In this document: positions 1,034 to 10,329 of the stretch, one piece after another
Position numbering within the stretch: position 1 is the first letter of the stretch
Layout: every line of letters starts with the position of its first letter
DNA from: Deltaproteobacteria bacterium
GTDB lineage: Bacteria; JAGRBM01; JAHCIT01
Length of the DNA: 60,526 nt
NCBI GenBank assembly: GCA_026129095.1
Contig: JAHCIT010000001.1
Span: 558,245-618,770 of the forward strand
Reading direction: 5' to 3'
Position numbers and translations under genes: made by a program
The notes under the pieces: generated by a model
What the model was told of the DNA's origin: nothing
What the model saw: the letters and a program-made list of their open reading frames with translations, nothing else
Database searches by the model: none

Positions 1034-2176
1034 ATGGATTTTGCCCTTTCCGGAACGCATCGCCTTCTCCAGCAGGCGGCCCGCGAGTTTGCTCAAAAGG
1101 AACTGGCACCACTGGCCGAGAAGGTGGATCGAGAACACTACTTTCCTGTTGAAAGCGTGAAAAAGCTTGGTGAGATGGGTTTTATGGGTGTTTTTGTTCC
1201 GGAAAAGCTTGGCGGCGCCGGAATGGACTTTCTTTCCTACGTTATTGTGATGGAGGAAGTCGCCGCCGCCTGTGCAGCGACTTCTGTCATCGTCAGTGTG
1301 AATAATTCTCTCGTTTGTGCCGGCTTGCTTCAGTTCGGAACCGAATCACAGAAGCGTGACCTCCTTGTGCCGCTTGCATCCGGAAAGCAGCTCGGCTGCT
1401 ACTGTCTATCGGAGCCAGACACGGGATCAGACGCGGCCGCCCAGCGTACCCGCGCCACCAGGAATGGCAGCGGGTGGATAATTGAAGGTGCCAAAAATTT
1501 CATCTCCAGTGCATTGCATGCCGACTGGGCTATTGTCTTTGCCATGACCGAGCCGGACAGGGGTTCCAAGGGTATCACGGCATTTCTGGTCGATACGAAA
1601 TCACCGGGTTTTGAAGTCGGAAAGGCGGAGATGAAACTTGGTATCTGTGGATCGGCCACGTCACAAATTACACTGAATGGCGTCAGAGTCCCGGAGGCCA
1701 ACGTACTCGGCGAGGTGAACGGCGGGTTTAAAATTGCAATGACGTTGCTTGAATCGGGACGAATCGGCATAGCGGCCCAGGCACTCGGCATTGGACGGGC
1801 GGCTTATGAGGCGGCCGTGAAATATTCAAAAGAACGTGTCGCCTTCGGCAAGCCGATCAGCGCCAACCAGGGTATCCAGTGGTATTTGTGCGACATGGCC
1901 GTAAGGCTCGAGAACTCACGCAATCTCATCTGCAAGGCCGCCTGGCTGAAGGAAACCGGCCAGCCATTTGGCAAGGAGGCCGCGATGGCGAAACTGTACG
2001 CGTCGGAGTCGGCCAACTGGATTGCCAATAAGGCTTTGCAAATCCATGGCGGCAATGGATACCTCAAGGAATATCCCGTCGAACGGTACTTCCGCGATGC
2101 CCGCGTCACAGAAATCTACGAAGGTACTACCGAGATTCAGAGGCTCGTGATCGCCCGGCATATCCTGAAAGACTAA
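1034..2176 (+). CDS. Short-chain (butyryl-CoA-type) acyl-CoA dehydrogenase
   Basis: CLSEPDTGSDAA, GRIGIAAQALG, QIHGGNGY and IYEGTTEIQR motifs; 3 bp after the crotonase gene. Confidence 0.95.
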   Translation: MDFALSGTHRLLQQAAREFAQKELAPLAEKVDREHYFPVESVKKLGEMGFMGVFVPEKLGGAGMDFLSYVIVMEEVAAACAATSVIVSVNNSLVCAGLLQFGTESQKRDLLVPLASGKQLGCYCLSEPDTGSDAAAQRTRATRNGSGWIIEGAKNFISSALHADWAIVFAMTEPDRGSKGITAFLVDTKSPGFEVGKAEMKLGICGSATSQITLNGVRVPEANVLGEVNGGFKIAMTLLESGRIGIAAQALGIGRAAYEAAVKYSKERVAFGKPISANQGIQWYLCDMAVRLENSRNLICKAAWLKETGQPFGKEAAMAKLYASESANWIANKALQIHGGNGYLKEYPVERYFRDARVTEIYEGTTEIQRLVIARHILKD

Positions 2177-6996: not shown

Positions 6997-7155
6997 TCGA
7001 CATACCTCCAGTGGATATTTGGCGGCACCAGTCAGGAGCCGTCTCGAAACAGTTTTCAGGAACAGCAGGGACTCTAGGTCTGCCCCGGCTTGTTGCCAAG
7101 TCGGGACAACTTGCCTGCCAGCATTGCGGCGTGTCAGGGGGACGGCATTAGCATC

Positions 7156-7629
7156 ATGGGTAAAAAGGACAAAAAGCCGGACTCCCTCATTACCGAGAAC
7201 CGCAAGGCGCGATTCCGGTACCAGGTGCTGGAAACAGTCGAGGCGGGGATCGTGCTGGAAGGCTGGGAAGTCAAGAGCCTGCGCGAGGACGGCGCGAATG
7301 TGTCAGACGCCTATGGGGTCATCAACGGAAGCGAGGTGTTCCTCCTGAATCTGCACATTTCACCCTATACCAAGTCCCGTGTGATCCCCGGCATGGAGAC
7401 CCGGACCCGCAAGCTCCTGCTGAACCGCAAGGAGATCAACGGCCTCGTCGGACAGGTGCGCGAGAAAGGCCGGACGCTCATCCCGCTCAAGCTCTACTGG
7501 AACGAGGCCGGACGGGCCAAGGTCCTGCTCGGTGTCTGCATCGGCAAGCAGGCCCACGACAAGCGGGAAACGATCAAGCGGCGCGACGAGGACCGCTACA
7601 TCGCCCGGGTAAAAAAACAGTTCCGTTAA
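7156..7629 (+). CDS. smpB: SsrA-binding protein SmpB
   Basis: NRKARFRY, EAGIVLEGWEVKSLR, RTRKLLL and GKQAHDKRETIK motifs. Confidence 0.97.
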   Translation: MGKKDKKPDSLITENRKARFRYQVLETVEAGIVLEGWEVKSLREDGANVSDAYGVINGSEVFLLNLHISPYTKSRVIPGMETRTRKLLLNRKEINGLVGQVREKGRTLIPLKLYWNEAGRAKVLLGVCIGKQAHDKRETIKRRDEDRYIARVKKQFR

Positions 7630-7684
7630 CGCCCTGCGTTGTCCTGAGGCTGACAAGAGCGTGCTGACGCCCGTGTCAGTCCCG

Positions 7685-7785
7685 GTTCACTGGTTGAACA
7701 ACAGCCGAACATGGCGTCTTATTTTGTAATATATATCAATAGTTTTAACAGGTTAGGGTTGAACATGGAACCGAACAGCCGTTCG
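7685..7785. promoter_or_regulatory. Cluster of GAAC/GTTC half-sites flanking an AT-rich IHF-like tract
   Basis: GGTTGAACA at 7692 and 7757; GAAC-N7-GAAC 7696-7710; palindrome CGAAC-AGCC-GTTCG 7772-7785; TATCAATAGTTTT within the 7718-7750 AT tract. Confidence 0.45.
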
Positions 7786-7804
7786 CTGAATGGGTGTTTT
7801 TTTC

Positions 7805-7834
7805 TTGCTGTTTCAGTTCCGTGTCATTCATAAT
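7805..7834 (+). promoter_or_regulatory. Sigma70-like promoter for the structured RNA and/or panBCD
   Basis: TTGCTG (7805-7810)-N18-CATAAT (7829-7834) with an upstream T-tract; the predicted start at about 7840-7841 coincides with the 5' end of the folded element. Confidence 0.5.
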
Positions 7835-7839
7835 GCCCG

Positions 7840-8089
7840 CGTGACCGGAGCCCGAAGGGCAAATAGCCCACAGAAGGCTCCAGGCCGCCTGGATTCCTGT
7901 CCGGATTGACGGAGGAACCGGGACGGAAAGGCCACAAGGACGCGGCAAGCTGTCAGGCCGGCGCGGCAGATTCCCCAGGAGCCCGGAAACGGACCCAGGA
8001 GGAAAGAGCCAGCAAAGCGCAGGTAACCCCAACGACAGTTCACCCGTTAACTGGCCCGCAAAGCGACGAACGGCTCGCCTTCACGTTTT
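7840..8089 (+). ncRNA. Unclassified ~245-nt structured RNA (sRNA or cis-regulatory leader of panBCD)
   Basis: Nested helices pair the 5' and 3' ends and form two long arms; G.U pairs favour the + strand; CCG-GAAA-CGG tetraloop; 13 GGA trinucleotides in 7847-8003; TTTT after the closing stem. Confidence 0.55.
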
Positions 8090-8209
8090 GCGTACGTCCC
8101 GGCTCACATCACTCCCTCATATCCGAGCAATGGAAGCACCTCCGGCGGAGACATGAAACCGGCGCATCGGGATTTTCCCGTGGCACCGGGATCGGAGAAG
8201 CGCACGGAC

Positions 8210-9013
8210 GTGGCAAAAAAGAAGACCATACCGGAACTTCAGGCCATGAAAGCCAAGGACGAGAAGATCGTCATGGTCACGGCCTACGACGCGACGTTCA
8301 CCCGGATCCTGGACCAGGCCGGGGTGGACTGCGTTCTGGTGGGCGATTCCCTGTCGATGGTGATCCAGGGCAATCCGGACACCCTCTCGGTCACGCTCGA
8401 TGAAATGATCTACCACGGCCGGATTGTCCGGCGCGGCATCTCCAAGGCCCATCTGGTTGTCGATCTGCCGTTCGGCTCCTATCAGGAGTCTCCCGAACAG
8501 GCCGTGCGTTCGGCTTCGAGACTCATGAAAGAGGGAGGCGCCGAAAGCGTGAAGCTGGAGGGTGGCCTCCCGATGGTTCCCTCGGTGCGGCGTCTTTCCG
8601 AGGTGGGCATCCCGGTCATGGGTCACATCGGCCTCACGCCGCAGTCGATCCACGCTTTCGGGGGCTTCAAGGTGCAGGGCCGTTCAGCCGAGGCGGCCGC
8701 GATCCTGAAGGAATCGGCTCTCGCCCTTGAGGATGCTGGCGCCTGGGCCATCGTTCTGGAGGGGATCCCTTCGGCCCTTGCCCGGGAGATTTCACTCTCG
8801 CTCCGTATCCCCACAATCGGTATCGGCGCCGGCGCGGCCTGTGACGGGCAGGTACTCGTAATTTATGACCTGCTGGGAATGGACAATTCATTCAACCCCA
8901 AGTTTGCCAAAAAATACGCCAAGCTGGCCGACACCATCAATGAAGCCGTCGGCTCGTTCATCGGAGAGGTCCGTTCGGGGCAGTTCCCGGCGGCGGAGCA
9001 CAGCTACTCATGA
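8210..9013 (+). CDS. panB: 3-methyl-2-oxobutanoate hydroxymethyltransferase
   Basis: VTAYD, LVGDS, VKLEGG, GHIGLTPQ and TIGIGAG motifs; GTG 8210 after GGAG (an in-frame ATG at 8153 is an alternative start). Confidence 0.97.
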   Translation: MAKKKTIPELQAMKAKDEKIVMVTAYDATFTRILDQAGVDCVLVGDSLSMVIQGNPDTLSVTLDEMIYHGRIVRRGISKAHLVVDLPFGSYQESPEQAVRSASRLMKEGGAESVKLEGGLPMVPSVRRLSEVGIPVMGHIGLTPQSIHAFGGFKVQGRSAEAAAILKESALALEDAGAWAIVLEGIPSALAREISLSLRIPTIGIGAGAACDGQVLVIYDLLGMDNSFNPKFAKKYAKLADTINEAVGSFIGEVRSGQFPAAEHSYS

Positions 9014-9924
9014 AGGTTGTCGGCACCACGACCGAGATGCGTGATCTCACCCGGCGGCTCCGCCGGGAGGACAAAACGATCGCCTTCGTGCCAACGATGG
9101 GCTTCCTGCATGAGGGCCATGCCTCGCTGCTCCGGCTTGCCCGCCGGAAAGGCGACGTCCTGGTGCTGTCGATTTTTGTCAATCCCGCGCAGTTTGGACC
9201 CAGTGAGGATCTCGATCGTTATCCCCGGAATCTTGAAGGCGATCTTGCCATTGCCCGCCGCGAGAACGTGGACATTGTTTTCACCCCCACACCGGCGGAA
9301 ATGTACGGAACAGGCTTCCAGACCTGGATCGACGTGGCAGAAGTATCGAAGCCCCTCTGCGGCGCCTCACGGCCGGGGCATTTCCGGGGAGTGGCGACCG
9401 TAGTAGCCAAGCTGCTGAACATCGTCCATGCCGACGTGGCCGTTTTCGGTGAAAAGGATTTCCAGCAGCTGGCCGTGATCCGCCGGATGGTCCGCGACCT
9501 CGACATGGACGTGGAAATCCTGGGCGGCCCTCTCGTCCGGGAAACCGACGGTCTGGCCATGAGTTCGCGTAACGTGAACCTCTCTCCGGCCCACCGGCGT
9601 GATGCACTCGTTCTGAAGCGTGCAATCGACCGCGTTAGGGAACTGTCCGCAGCGGGTGAAACCAGCGCCGGAACACTCATCGCCGCCGCCCGGAAAGTGC
9701 TTGACGAAGTACCCGGTGGCGAGACCGACTACGTGGAGATTCGCGACGCCTCCACGCTCGAAACCATTGACCGGCTGGACGGACCCGCGCTACTGGCGCT
9801 GGCGGTCCGTTTTGGCGGTACCAGGCTCATCGACAACACGGTACTCCCTGTGGGGGGCCGGGTTCATGAGGAAAACCCGAGGGCTCCGATCCCTGAACTG
9901 TCAGGGACGGCGACCCCGCACTGA
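9010..9924 (+). CDS. panC: Pantoate-beta-alanine ligase
   Basis: FVPTMGFLHEGH, SIFVNPAQF, RPGHFRGV, FGEKDFQQ, GLAMSSRN and RLIDN motifs; ATGA overlap with panB. Confidence 0.97.
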   Translation: MKVVGTTTEMRDLTRRLRREDKTIAFVPTMGFLHEGHASLLRLARRKGDVLVLSIFVNPAQFGPSEDLDRYPRNLEGDLAIARRENVDIVFTPTPAEMYGTGFQTWIDVAEVSKPLCGASRPGHFRGVATVVAKLLNIVHADVAVFGEKDFQQLAVIRRMVRDLDMDVEILGGPLVRETDGLAMSSRNVNLSPAHRRDALVLKRAIDRVRELSAAGETSAGTLIAAARKVLDEVPGGETDYVEIRDASTLETIDRLDGPALLALAVRFGGTRLIDNTVLPVGGRVHEENPRAPIPELSGTATPH

Positions 9925-9939
9925 AGAGGAAGCACGCTC

Positions 9940-10329
9940 ATGGCAACCAGAACAATGCTCCGGGGCAAGATCCATCGCTGCACAGTGACGCAGGCCGACC
10001 TGCACTATGAGGGCAGCGTGACGATCGACCGCGACCTGATGGATGGAGCGAACCTGCTCCCCTACGAGGCTGTAGACATCTGGAACGTGGACAACGGCGA
10101 GCGGTTCTCAACCTATGCGCTCGAAGGCCCCCGTGGCTCGGGCGTCATCTGCGTCAATGGCGCCGCAGCCCGCAAGGTGGCCGTGGGCGACCGGATCATC
10201 ATCGCCCATTTCGCCCAGGCGACCGAGGAAGAAGCCCGGAGCTGGGAACCAGCCTGTGTGTTTGTCGACGAGAAGAACCGGCCGAAGAAGCTCCAGTCCT
10301 ACGAATCAGTGAATCTCCGCGCGGTCTGA
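9940..10329 (+). CDS. panD: Aspartate 1-decarboxylase (pyruvoyl enzyme)
   Basis: [16 protein letters not shown] autocleavage site, NGERFSTY and NGAAAR motifs. Confidence 0.97.

What the first reader, a model, noticed from the sequence alone, without database searches (positions are those of the whole stretch)
7840..8089. Unclassified ~245-nt Y-shaped structured RNA between smpB and panBCD
Seen: a closing stem CGTGA(7840-44)/TCACG(8081-85), GAGCC(7848-52)/GGCTC(8072-76), GGGC(7857-60)/GCCC(8054-57), TAGC(7864-67)/GTTA(8046-49), followed by TTTT. Arm 1 (7883-7933) pairs GGCC/GGCC, CCTGG/CCGGG, TTCC/GGAA and TGTC/GACG. Arm 2 (7948-8040) pairs AGCTGTC/GACAGTT, GCGC/GCGC, GGC/GCC and TTCC/GGAA and is capped by CCG-GAAA-CGG. 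Four helices use G.U pairs that work only on the + strand, the loops are purine-rich, and a promoter lies immediately upstream. It lacks the diagnostic signatures of tmRNA, RNase P RNA, SRP RNA and the riboswitches I know. Inference: a discrete, possibly undescribed ncRNA at a locus (after smpB) that often hosts RNA genes.
Basis: partly seen in the sequence, partly recalled or inferred. Interest (0 to 1): 0.8.

Follow-up and report, generated by a model that had tools for sequence, protein, structure and literature searches.

The report
Variant pan-motif leader of panBCD
The structured stretch is not a new free-standing RNA but the long 5' leader of the pantothenate (vitamin B5) synthesis operon, carrying two hairpins of the already described but still unexplained "pan" regulatory RNA type.

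Summary
Its two arms are real and conserved. The long-range closing stems that make the "Y" are not supported.

Arm 1 (7885-7926) is a canonical pan-motif hairpin: a stem with two bulged A residues. A covariance model built only from pan hairpins of unrelated lineages finds it in all 7 homologous leaders (22-31 bits). Rfam's two-hairpin model RF01749 gives 18.5 bits, below its 36.2 cut-off.

The tip of arm 2 (7971-8004) has the same bulged-A architecture. It shows compensatory changes across the phylum, and in the sister family it carries the canonical GGAU signature.

The element sits upstream of panB in all 6 genomes of a small phylum and in one metagenome contig, whether or not smpB is adjacent. 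A conserved promoter-like site lies just upstream.

In 6 of 7 leaders a terminator-like hairpin lies between the hairpins and panB. This genome lacks one.

Best reading: a cis-regulatory attenuator of the pan class whose effector is unknown. It is a new variant of a known kind and of modest interest.

The parts
7771..7785 (.). Palindrome CCGAAC-AGCC-GTTCG upstream of the -35-like site; possible operator for a DNA-binding protein (inference)
   Evidence: Arms invariant and 4-nt spacer variable in the 4 family genomes. Also seen in L047.
7805..7834 (+). Promoter-like site: -35-like TTGCTG (7805-10), 18-nt spacer, -10-like CATAAT (7829-34). The predicted start is near 7840.
   Evidence: CTTGC and CATAAT are invariant in 4 of 4 family genomes. 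Similar TTTTTCTTGC in G005. Below the threshold of the consensus scan, which found 0.
7847..7881 (+). P1: local 5' hairpin GGAGCC/GGCUCC with an inner hairpin GGGC-AAAUA-GCCC. It is longer here than in relatives.
   Evidence: Present in the minimum-energy fold. The consensus fold of 4 sequences predicts this local helix, with changes on both sides in 3 of 8 pairs.
7885..7926 (+). pan-A, a canonical pan hairpin: CCG / CCUGG / bulged A7893 / UUCC ... GGAA / CCGGG / bulged A7923 / CGG
   Evidence: RF01749 second hairpin aligned here. Model R1, built from 16 hairpins of other lineages, gives 29.9 bits, E 1.3e-5, and hits the same place in 7 of 7 leaders.
7956..8030 (+). Arm 2: long irregular helix with purine-rich internal loops (GCGC 7961-64/8017-20, GGC 7965-67/GCC 8008-10). 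pan-B sits at its tip.
   Evidence: Minimum-energy folds. Each relative has a long arm at the same place, with different basal sequences.
7971..8004 (+). pan-B, a pan-like hairpin: UUCC / CCAGG / bulged A7980 / GCCCG-GAAA-CGGAC / CCAGG / bulged A8000 / GGAA. It has an A.A at the centre of the 5-bp block and one extra pair after the bulge.
   Evidence: 13 pairs over 7 sequences: 86.8% of cells paired against 78.0% in shuffles (0 of 500 reach it). 4 pairs have changes on both sides (3 of 500 reach it). Slid controls give 35-59%. The pan-B model R2 finds pan-A as its best non-training hit (18.4 bits, E 0.011). The canonical model R1 does not find pan-B here.
8097..8104 (+). CGUCCCGG, complementary to the pan-A 3' strand CCGGGACG (7918-25); possible alternative pairing
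   Evidence: Best duplex -17.9 kcal/mol, reached by 6 of 300 shuffles. The full-leader minimum-energy fold uses it and breaks pan-A.
8086..8209 (+). Rest of the 5' leader. No recognisable intrinsic terminator here, unlike the relatives.
   Evidence: My terminator scan found candidates in 6 of 7 leaders and none in G000. The tool scan found none on the + strand between 7794 and 8300.
8210..9013 (+). panB, with GTG 8210 the likelier start (ATG 8153 is the longest ORF); followed by panC 9010-9924 and panD 9940-10329
   Evidence: ORFs. Relatives start just before the KKKT motif. Strain differences in 8153-8209 fall on codon position 1 in 3 of 5 cases; after 8210 they fall on position 3 in 5 of 6 listed.

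Best explanation
Bases from about 7840 to 8209 are the 5' untranslated leader of the panB-panC-panD mRNA. Transcription starts from a conserved promoter-like site just upstream.

The leader carries, in order:
- a variable 5' hairpin (P1);
- a canonical pan-motif hairpin (pan-A);
- a long arm tipped by a second, diverged pan-type hairpin (pan-B).

Each pan hairpin is a short helix of near two-fold symmetry in which a 5-bp block is flanked by one bulged A on each strand.

Shown: the homology, the structure, the link to panB, and the presence of terminators in relatives.

Inferred: the two hairpins are binding sites for one effector that reports the state of the pantothenate/CoA pathway. That effector is either a dimeric protein, as Weinberg et al. 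proposed for pan RNAs, or a small molecule. A bound, closed hairpin lets a downstream terminator form, so that panBCD is shut off. An unbound hairpin lets one of its strands pair with the terminator's 5' arm, so that transcription reads through.

This genome has lost the recognisable terminator. Its output step (alternative pairing with 8097-8136, RNA stability or translation) is unknown.
For: 1. pan-A. RF01749 aligns its second hairpin here (18.5 bits). R1, built only from 16 pan hairpins of other lineages, hits the same hairpin in 7 of 7 leaders at 22.3-30.6 bits, E 8.7e-6 to 1.6e-3 over 80 kb. The next window hits are 11.8 and 9.9 bits.

2. pan-B. It has the same architecture by direct reading and aligns in all 7 leaders. 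86.8% of cells are paired against 78.0% in shuffles (0 of 500), and 4 of 13 pairs have changes on both sides. The sister family shows GGAU after the 5-bp block, as in the Rfam consensus. R2 finds pan-A at E 0.011.

3. Context. The element is upstream of panB in all 6 genomes held for the phylum and in L047. R1 finds pan hairpins on the + strand in 21 of 80 metagenome panB loci, 8 of them neither in nor near-identical to the training set. I checked the position upstream of the panB match from the locus table rather than with a separate script.

4. [quoted passage not shown]

5. Terminator-like hairpins with U tails lie 25-60 nt before the end of the extracted leader in 6 of 7 leaders.

6. The terminator 5' arm finds its best upstream partner in the pan-A 3' strand in G004 (-30.6 kcal/mol, 1 of 300 shuffles) and in pan-B in G005 (-26.9, 4 of 300).

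7. Contigs from RNA libraries cover the leader. One 947-nt contig runs 7576-8522 from smpB into panB, and one covers 7865-8004. This is weak evidence, because DNA can be present in such libraries.
Against: - The Rfam gathering score is not met (18.5 against 36.2). No genome of the phylum has a match at E <= 1 in the whole-genome search (0 of 6).
- The canonical single-hairpin model does not recognise pan-B in this genome (4.2 bits, wrong register). It recognises pan-B only weakly in G005 (8.4 bits, E 0.022 within 188 nt).
- Only 7 sequences exist, two of them near-identical, so the covariation statistics are thin.
- This genome has no terminator.
- The antiterminator pairing is not above shuffles in the 4 sequences of the sister genus (178, 244, 283 and 293 of 300 shuffles as good).
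- Folding with pan-A open or closed leaves the ribosome-site region unchanged.
- No effector is known for any pan RNA in the papers I could search.
- No transcript ends could be read, because all the runs are contigs.
Confidence: 0.8

Rival explanations
1. A direct metabolite-sensing riboswitch. The two pan hairpins are tandem aptamers for a small molecule of the pantothenate/CoA pathway, and no protein is involved.
For: The position is that of a biosynthetic 5' leader with terminators downstream in relatives. The conserved unpaired A residues and the invariant 5-bp blocks could form ligand pockets. Tandem arrangement is compatible with cooperative sensing. No regulator protein is known.
Against: Each hairpin is very simple and nearly two-fold symmetric. 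The authors who described the class read this as a protein site. In the library I searched, no paper since 2010 reports a ligand. Nothing in my data separates this reading from protein binding.
Confidence: 0.2
2. One reading: a free-standing ~245-nt Y-shaped small RNA, closed by long-range stems and ended by TTTT at 8086-8089, with a function unrelated to panBCD.
For: CGTGA/TCACG pairs in the fold of the excerpt and is followed by UUUU. The conserved promoter-like site lies upstream. In one RNA library, contigs begin at 8089 and 8112. Contig ends carry little weight.
Against: - Two of the four closing stems need a segment that the 3 relatives in that alignment lack. A third is outcompeted by a local hairpin that covaries.
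- The closing stem is not kept in relatives and is absent from the full-leader fold.
- The UUUU pairs inside a local hairpin GCAAAGCG...CGUUUUGC.
- The element follows panB, not smpB.
- One RNA-library contig runs through 8085-8089 into panB.
Confidence: 0.05
3. The structure has no regulatory role. It is a stabilising 5' structure of the mRNA, or GC-rich sequence that folds by chance, and the match to pan is coincidental.
For: Both strands fold about equally better than shuffles. The genome is GC-rich. The Rfam score is sub-threshold.
Against: An independent model finds the same hairpin in 7 of 7 leaders, and only there at E < 0.01 in 80 kb. The sequence is conserved across two families whose PanB proteins are only 72-73% identical. 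Compensatory changes are seen. In a strain variant differing at 44 positions in 947 nt, no listed difference lies inside either hairpin, though 8 differences were not shown.
Confidence: 0.04
4. The region is coding: ORF 7906-8403 (165 aa, TTG start), or one of the minus-strand ORFs, is translated.
For: The ORFs are open.
Against: - ORF 7906-8403 overlaps panB in another frame.
- Relatives differ from G000 inside it by insertions and deletions that are not multiples of three, for example the 11-nt block in arm 2.
- The relatives list no ORF of matching extent there.
- Long spurious ORFs are common around here on all frames.
Confidence: 0.01

Closest known systems
pan motif (Rfam RF01749; Weinberg et al. 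2010, PMC2864571)
   Same: - A hairpin in which a 5-bp block is flanked by one conserved bulged A on each strand.
- The same core sequence: CCG-CCUGG-A-U...GGA-CCGGG-A-CGG.
- Two such hairpins in one leader.
- Placed upstream of panB/panC/panD.
   Different: - Below the family's gathering score (18.5 against 36.2).
- The hairpin that matches the model's strongly conserved second hairpin comes first here, not last.
- The two hairpins are 44 nt apart (7927-7970), and the second sits at the tip of a ~75-nt arm. In the Rfam consensus a ~30-nt AU-rich linker separates them.
- pan-B in this family has GGAG(C/U)C instead of GGAUC, a U-A or A.A in place of the central U.G, and one extra pair.
- The hairpins lie more than 200 nt from the start codon. 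In the lineage where the family model scores best (L001, 54.8 bits), and in L048, the last hairpin lies within about 10-30 nt of the start of the PanB match.
- The host belongs to a phylum of which only 6 species genomes are held.
Attenuators of the PyrR type: a protein-stabilised anti-antiterminator hairpin in pyr leaders of Bacillus. Recalled from general knowledge, not tested here.
   Same: The proposed logic. A conserved upstream hairpin, when held closed by a bound effector, withholds a strand that would otherwise pair with the terminator's 5' arm. In G004 a 10-nt perfect complement links the pan-A 3' strand and the terminator arm.
   Different: No homology is claimed. The effector is unknown. 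The competing pairing is supported in 2 of 6 terminator-bearing leaders only.
RAT hairpins bound by dimeric LicT/SacY-type antiterminators. Recalled from general knowledge, not tested here.
   Same: A short hairpin with near two-fold symmetric irregularities on both strands, of the kind a protein dimer reads.
   Different: RAT overlaps its terminator and binding gives read-through. Here the hairpins lie 100-200 nt upstream of the terminators. No CAT-domain protein was sought.

Membership tests
pan motif (RF01749) | Score at or above Rfam's gathering cut-off (36.2 bits) with the two-hairpin model | tested here: not met
   18.5 bits, E 1.5, at 7834-7930. 0 matches at gathering in the whole window. 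0 of 6 genomes of the phylum match at E <= 1.
pan motif (RF01749) | [quoted passage not shown] | tested here: met
   Bulged A7893 and A7923 flank CCUGG/CCGGG. Model R1, built from 16 hairpins of other lineages, gives 29.9 bits, E 1.3e-5, and hits 7 of 7 leaders.
pan motif (RF01749) | The same bulged-A stem - second hairpin, 7971-8004 | tested here: inconclusive
   The architecture is met by reading (A7980, A8000 flank CCAGG/CCAGG) and by covariation. R2 to pan-A gives E 0.011. R1 fails on it here (4.2 bits, wrong register) and is weak in G005 (8.4 bits).
pan motif (RF01749) | [quoted passage not shown] | tested here: met
   Two hairpins of the type lie in each of the 7 leaders. Their order, their spacing and the embedding of the second in a long arm differ from the Rfam consensus.
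pan motif (RF01749) | Located upstream of operons with panB, panC or aspartate decarboxylase (panD) | tested here: met
   panB, panC and panD follow directly. The same holds upstream of panB in the 6 other loci.
tmRNA (ssrA), the RNA gene often found beside smpB | tRNA-like domain and tag reading frame detectable by ARAGORN or Rfam | tested here: not met
   ARAGORN finds 0 genes in the window. No Rfam match.
Any other Rfam 15 family (6S, SRP, RNase P, known riboswitches) | A match at gathering score, or any match at E <= 10 in the 601-nt local search | tested here: not met
   One search gave 0 matches. One search gave only pan and a chance lncRNA fragment. One search (arm 2 alone) gave only two lncRNA fragments at 4-9 bits.

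The most novel reading that the evidence does not exclude
The two non-identical pan hairpins, joined by the long arm, form one composite sensor that binds a small molecule of the pantothenate/CoA pathway directly. That would make the pan class the missing RNA sensor for this coenzyme pathway. This phylum's version would be an expanded form whose extra helices pre-organise the two sites.
Probability: 0.12. Interest if true: 0.75.

Novelty: new variant of a known kind. Interest (0 to 1): 0.3.

Why it matters
The pan motif was described in 2010. In the literature I could search it still has no known effector. Only the 2010 paper describes it; the later papers I opened only list it in transcriptome surveys.

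This locus does three things:
- It extends the class to a small, uncultured phylum.
- It shows that Rfam's two-hairpin model misses such variants.
- It offers a natural series for defining what the effector reads. The series runs from a canonical first hairpin through a second hairpin that drifts from GGAU to GGAG(C/U)C, with terminators present in some lineages and lost in this one.

For annotation, the practical gain is smaller. The smpB-panB spacer should be labelled as a pan-type leader, not as a new small RNA, and panB probably starts at GTG 8210.

Tried and rejected
- Exact-pattern scan for the pan-B core in species genomes. It gave 19 stretches: 3 were the family's own leaders and 16 were not leaders. 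13 of those 16 show one shared coding context that I recognise from memory as ispG; I ran no family search on them.
- A stricter pattern in metagenome contigs gave 0 stretches. L047 was missed because of a C-to-U change that turns a C.A mismatch into a U-A pair.
- Whole-genome search of G000 with R1 returned nothing, not even pan-A. Only 150 of 4522 first-look candidates were scored, so it is uninformative.
- A loose text-pattern scan of the genome gave 31 hits. Apart from pan-A and pan-B, most have long spacers. Three were cut out and one was read. The R1 hit at window 1368-1426 lies inside an acyl-CoA dehydrogenase-like ORF.
- Antiterminator pairing between pan strands and the terminator arm was not above shuffles in G001, G002, G003 or L047 when tested from the terminator side. 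It was mixed from the pan-A side, with 4, 24, 85 and 27 of 300 shuffles as good.
- Ribosome-site sequestration in G000: the folds with pan-A open or forced closed show the same structure over 8137-8212.
- RNA evidence. All four RNA runs are kept as contigs, so starts, ends, strand and level cannot be read. The lack of cover over 7500-8088 in run X9, and its contig starts at 8089 and 8112, prove nothing.
- Supplementary files of Weinberg 2010 (the pan alignment and drawing) could not be seen. They may show whether long-arm variants were already noted.

Full report
**Setting.** The window encodes smpB (ORF 7090-7629; I took ATG 7153 as the start). After a 520-580 nt spacer come panB (ATG 8153 or GTG 8210 to 9013), panC (9010-9924) and panD (9940-10329), all on the + strand. 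The finding covers 7840-8089 inside that spacer.

**The observation.**
- The 250-nt excerpt folds to -103.6 kcal/mol, z -3.13, with 1 of 200 shuffles as good.
- The reverse complement does about as well: -112.4 kcal/mol, z -2.83, 1 of 200. Energy therefore does not set the strand.
- The other three closing stems are replaced by a local hairpin, GGAGCC(7847-52)/GGCUCC(7876-81), which encloses GGGC/GCCC.

**Known families.**
- Rfam 15 gives nothing at gathering score in the whole window. ARAGORN finds no tRNA or tmRNA.
- In the lax search of 7600-8200 the only relevant match is the pan motif RF01749 at 7834-7930. It scores 18.5 bits against a cut-off of 36.2, E 1.5.
- The model's second hairpin aligns well to arm 1, and its first hairpin aligns poorly.
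[quoted passage not shown] **Relatives.**
- The phylum of this genome holds only 6 species genomes: G000; G001-G003 in a sister genus; and G004-G005 in a second family.
- A DNA search finds parts of the spacer upstream of panB in G001-G003.
- A PanB search places the G004 and G005 genes, and I read their upstream regions.
- A PanB-based scan of metagenome contigs adds one close relative, L047 (88% PanB identity). It also adds 79 more distant panB loci.
- The element is upstream of panB in all 7 loci. Of the six genomes, smpB is adjacent only in G000 and G003; in G002 it lies about 3.6 kb downstream of panB on the same contig.
- The element therefore belongs to panB, not to smpB.

**Promoter.** In the family alignment, CTTGC and CATAAT are invariant just upstream of the first conserved RNA bases CGTG(A/G)C. 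The spacing is 18 nt and the -35 matches the consensus in only 3 of 6 positions, which is why the consensus scan reports no promoter. A palindrome CCGAAC-N4-GTTCG further upstream is also conserved.

**Arm 1 is a pan hairpin.**
- I built a covariance model (R1) of a single pan hairpin from 16 hairpins found upstream of panB in other lineages. None came from this phylum.
- Over 80 kb (the window plus six loci, both strands), R1 finds exactly one strong hit in each of the 7 leaders. All are at the homologous place and on the panB strand, at 22.3-30.6 bits, E 8.7e-6 to 1.6e-3.
- The window scores 29.9 bits at 7883-7928. The next hits score 11.8 and 9.9 bits.
- The anatomy is CCG / CCUGG / A7893 / UUCC ... 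GGAA / CCGGG / A7923 / CGG.
- In the 80 metagenome panB loci, R1 finds 21 hits at E <= 0.1, all on the panB strand. 8 of them are neither in nor near-identical to the training set.

**The tip of arm 2 is a second hairpin of the same build.**
- Read directly, it is UUCC / CCAGG / A7980 / GCCCG-GAAA-CGGAC / CCAGG / A8000 / GGAA. This is the same plan of outer pairs, a 5-bp block and one bulged A on the 3' side of each strand's block.
- MAFFT aligns this hairpin in all 7 leaders, and RNAalifold predicts it as the consensus structure.
- Over its 13 pairs, 86.8% of cells pair against 78.0% in shuffles (0 of 500 as high). 4 pairs have changes on both sides (3 of 500). Sliding the partner by 1-3 columns gives 35-59%.
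- In G004 and G005 the base after the bulged A is U, so the strand reads GGAU as in the Rfam consensus. In this family it is G.
- In L047 a C-to-U change turns the C.A mismatch into U-A.
- Against this, R1 does not find the hairpin in G000 (4.2 bits, wrong register) and finds it only weakly in G005 (8.4 bits, E 0.022 in 188 nt).
- The reverse test is positive but modest. A model of pan-B (R2) has pan-A of the window as its best hit outside its own training sequences, in the right register (18.4 bits, E 0.011 over 122 kb).
- R2 finds no further example in the 80 metagenome loci except L047.
- I therefore call pan-B a diverged pan hairpin by architecture, position and covariation, not by sequence-model score.

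**The closing stems.** On the family alignment:
- The 5' strands of GGGC/GCCC(8054) and TAGC/GTTA fall in a segment that only G000 has. All 8 pairs show gaps in 3 of 4 rows.
- CGTGA/TCACG is unpaired in 2-3 of the 3 relatives at 3 of its 5 pairs. That alignment misplaces the pan-A 3' strand, so I use it only for these stems.
- The local P1 hairpin is predicted by the consensus fold of 4 sequences, with changes on both sides in 3 of 8 pairs.
- When the leader is folded through to panB, the CGUGA/UCACG stem disappears, and the UUUU at 8086-8089 pairs inside a local hairpin.
- The overall plan common to all 7 leaders is a linear series, not a Y: P1, pan-A, a long arm with pan-B on top, then a variable 3' part.

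**The 3' part and the likely mechanism.**
- A scan for a closed hairpin followed by a U-rich tail finds one 25-60 nt before the end of the extracted leader in 6 of 7 leaders. The energies run from -25.7 to -40.8 kcal/mol. G000 has none.
- Terminators also follow single pan hairpins in unrelated metagenome lineages. Their stems are often GCCUUCCGG/CCGGAAGGC, like the stem of the sister genus.
- This points to control of transcription termination.
- For the switch itself the evidence is partial. In G004 the terminator's 5' arm is perfectly complementary over 10 nt to the pan-A 3' strand and flank (-30.6 kcal/mol, 1 of 300 shuffles). In G005 its best partner is pan-B (-26.9, 4 of 300). In the sister genus nothing exceeds shuffles.
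- In G000 the pan-A 3' strand has an 8-nt complement at 8097-8104 (6 of 300 shuffles). The full-leader fold (-161.4 kcal/mol) breaks pan-A to pair with 8095-8136, while forcing pan-A costs 7 kcal/mol. The fold around the ribosome site is the same in both.
- How G000 converts hairpin state into output is therefore open.

**Start of panB.**
- Relatives begin just before the KKKT motif.
- In contigs of related strains, differences within 8153-8209 fall on codon position 1 in 3 of 5 cases. After 8210, 5 of 6 listed differences fall on position 3.
- GTG 8210 is therefore the likelier start, and the leader is about 370 nt long.

**RNA data.**
- 20 of the 24 listed public runs hold the stretch or part of it, and 6 are recorded as RNA.
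- I laid four RNA runs, all of which are kept as contigs.
- One 947-nt contig runs from 7576 to 8522 with 44 differences. None of the listed differences lies inside pan-A or pan-B, though 8 were not shown.
- Another contig covers 7865-8004.
- This is compatible with a transcribed leader continuous with panB. It cannot show ends, strand or level.

**Literature.**
- Searches for the pan motif under several names return the 2010 description and papers that merely list it in transcriptome surveys. Two of these I opened by passage.
- Two riboswitch reviews and two later motif surveys do not mention pantothenate or panB in their main text.
- I found no report of an effector.

**Verdict.**
- The finding is real as a structure but misdrawn and misfiled. 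It is the panBCD leader with tandem pan-type hairpins, a variant that Rfam's model misses.
- It is not a new class and not an smpB-associated small RNA.
- Confidence that it is a pan-class cis-regulatory leader is about 0.8. The effector, and the output step in this genome, remain unknown.

Noticed in passing
window 7771-7785: Palindrome CCGAAC-N4-GTTCG just upstream of the -35-like site. The arms are invariant and the spacer differs in the 4 family genomes and in L047. It looks like an operator for a dimeric DNA-binding protein. A loose scan finds 14 such palindromes (3-5 nt spacers) in the genome; I did not examine their contexts.
   Followed up: partly
window 8153-8212: panB probably starts at GTG 8210, not ATG 8153. 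Relatives start just before the KKKT motif. Strain differences in 8153-8209 do not show the third-position pattern that is seen after 8210.
   Followed up: partly
L004, L054-L059, L087, L097; L022/L023/L047 leaders: Terminator hairpins downstream of pan hairpins in unrelated lineages share nearly the same stem, GCCUUCCGG...CCGGAAGGC. In L097 the 3' arm carries a bulged A. The pan-B model hits three of them weakly on the opposite strand (L056, L057, L068; 10-14 bits). I could not explain why this stem sequence recurs.
   Followed up: partly
L127 1138-1182 (G000:C12:149437-149481): A hairpin with the pan plan, CGG / CCCGG / A / GCCU...AGGC / CCGGG / A / CCG. It ends in GGAGG 6 nt before the ATG of a 2-nitropropane dioxygenase-like ORF; that name rests on my reading of the sequence, with no family search run. 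It may be a chance palindrome.
   Followed up: partly
L054, L056-L059, L087 (about 140-170 nt upstream of panB): In this metagenome lineage the single pan hairpin appears to begin inside the last codons of the upstream ORF, with stop codons in the hairpin loop. I did not check this by translation.
   Followed up: no
L027, L028, L030, L032, L035-L039, L042-L044: The 28-29-nt core of pan-B (GGAGCCCG...CGGACCCAGGAGG) also occurs in one conserved coding region in 13 genomes of several phyla. I recognise that region from memory as ispG and ran no family search. It is a trap for pattern searches.
   Followed up: yes
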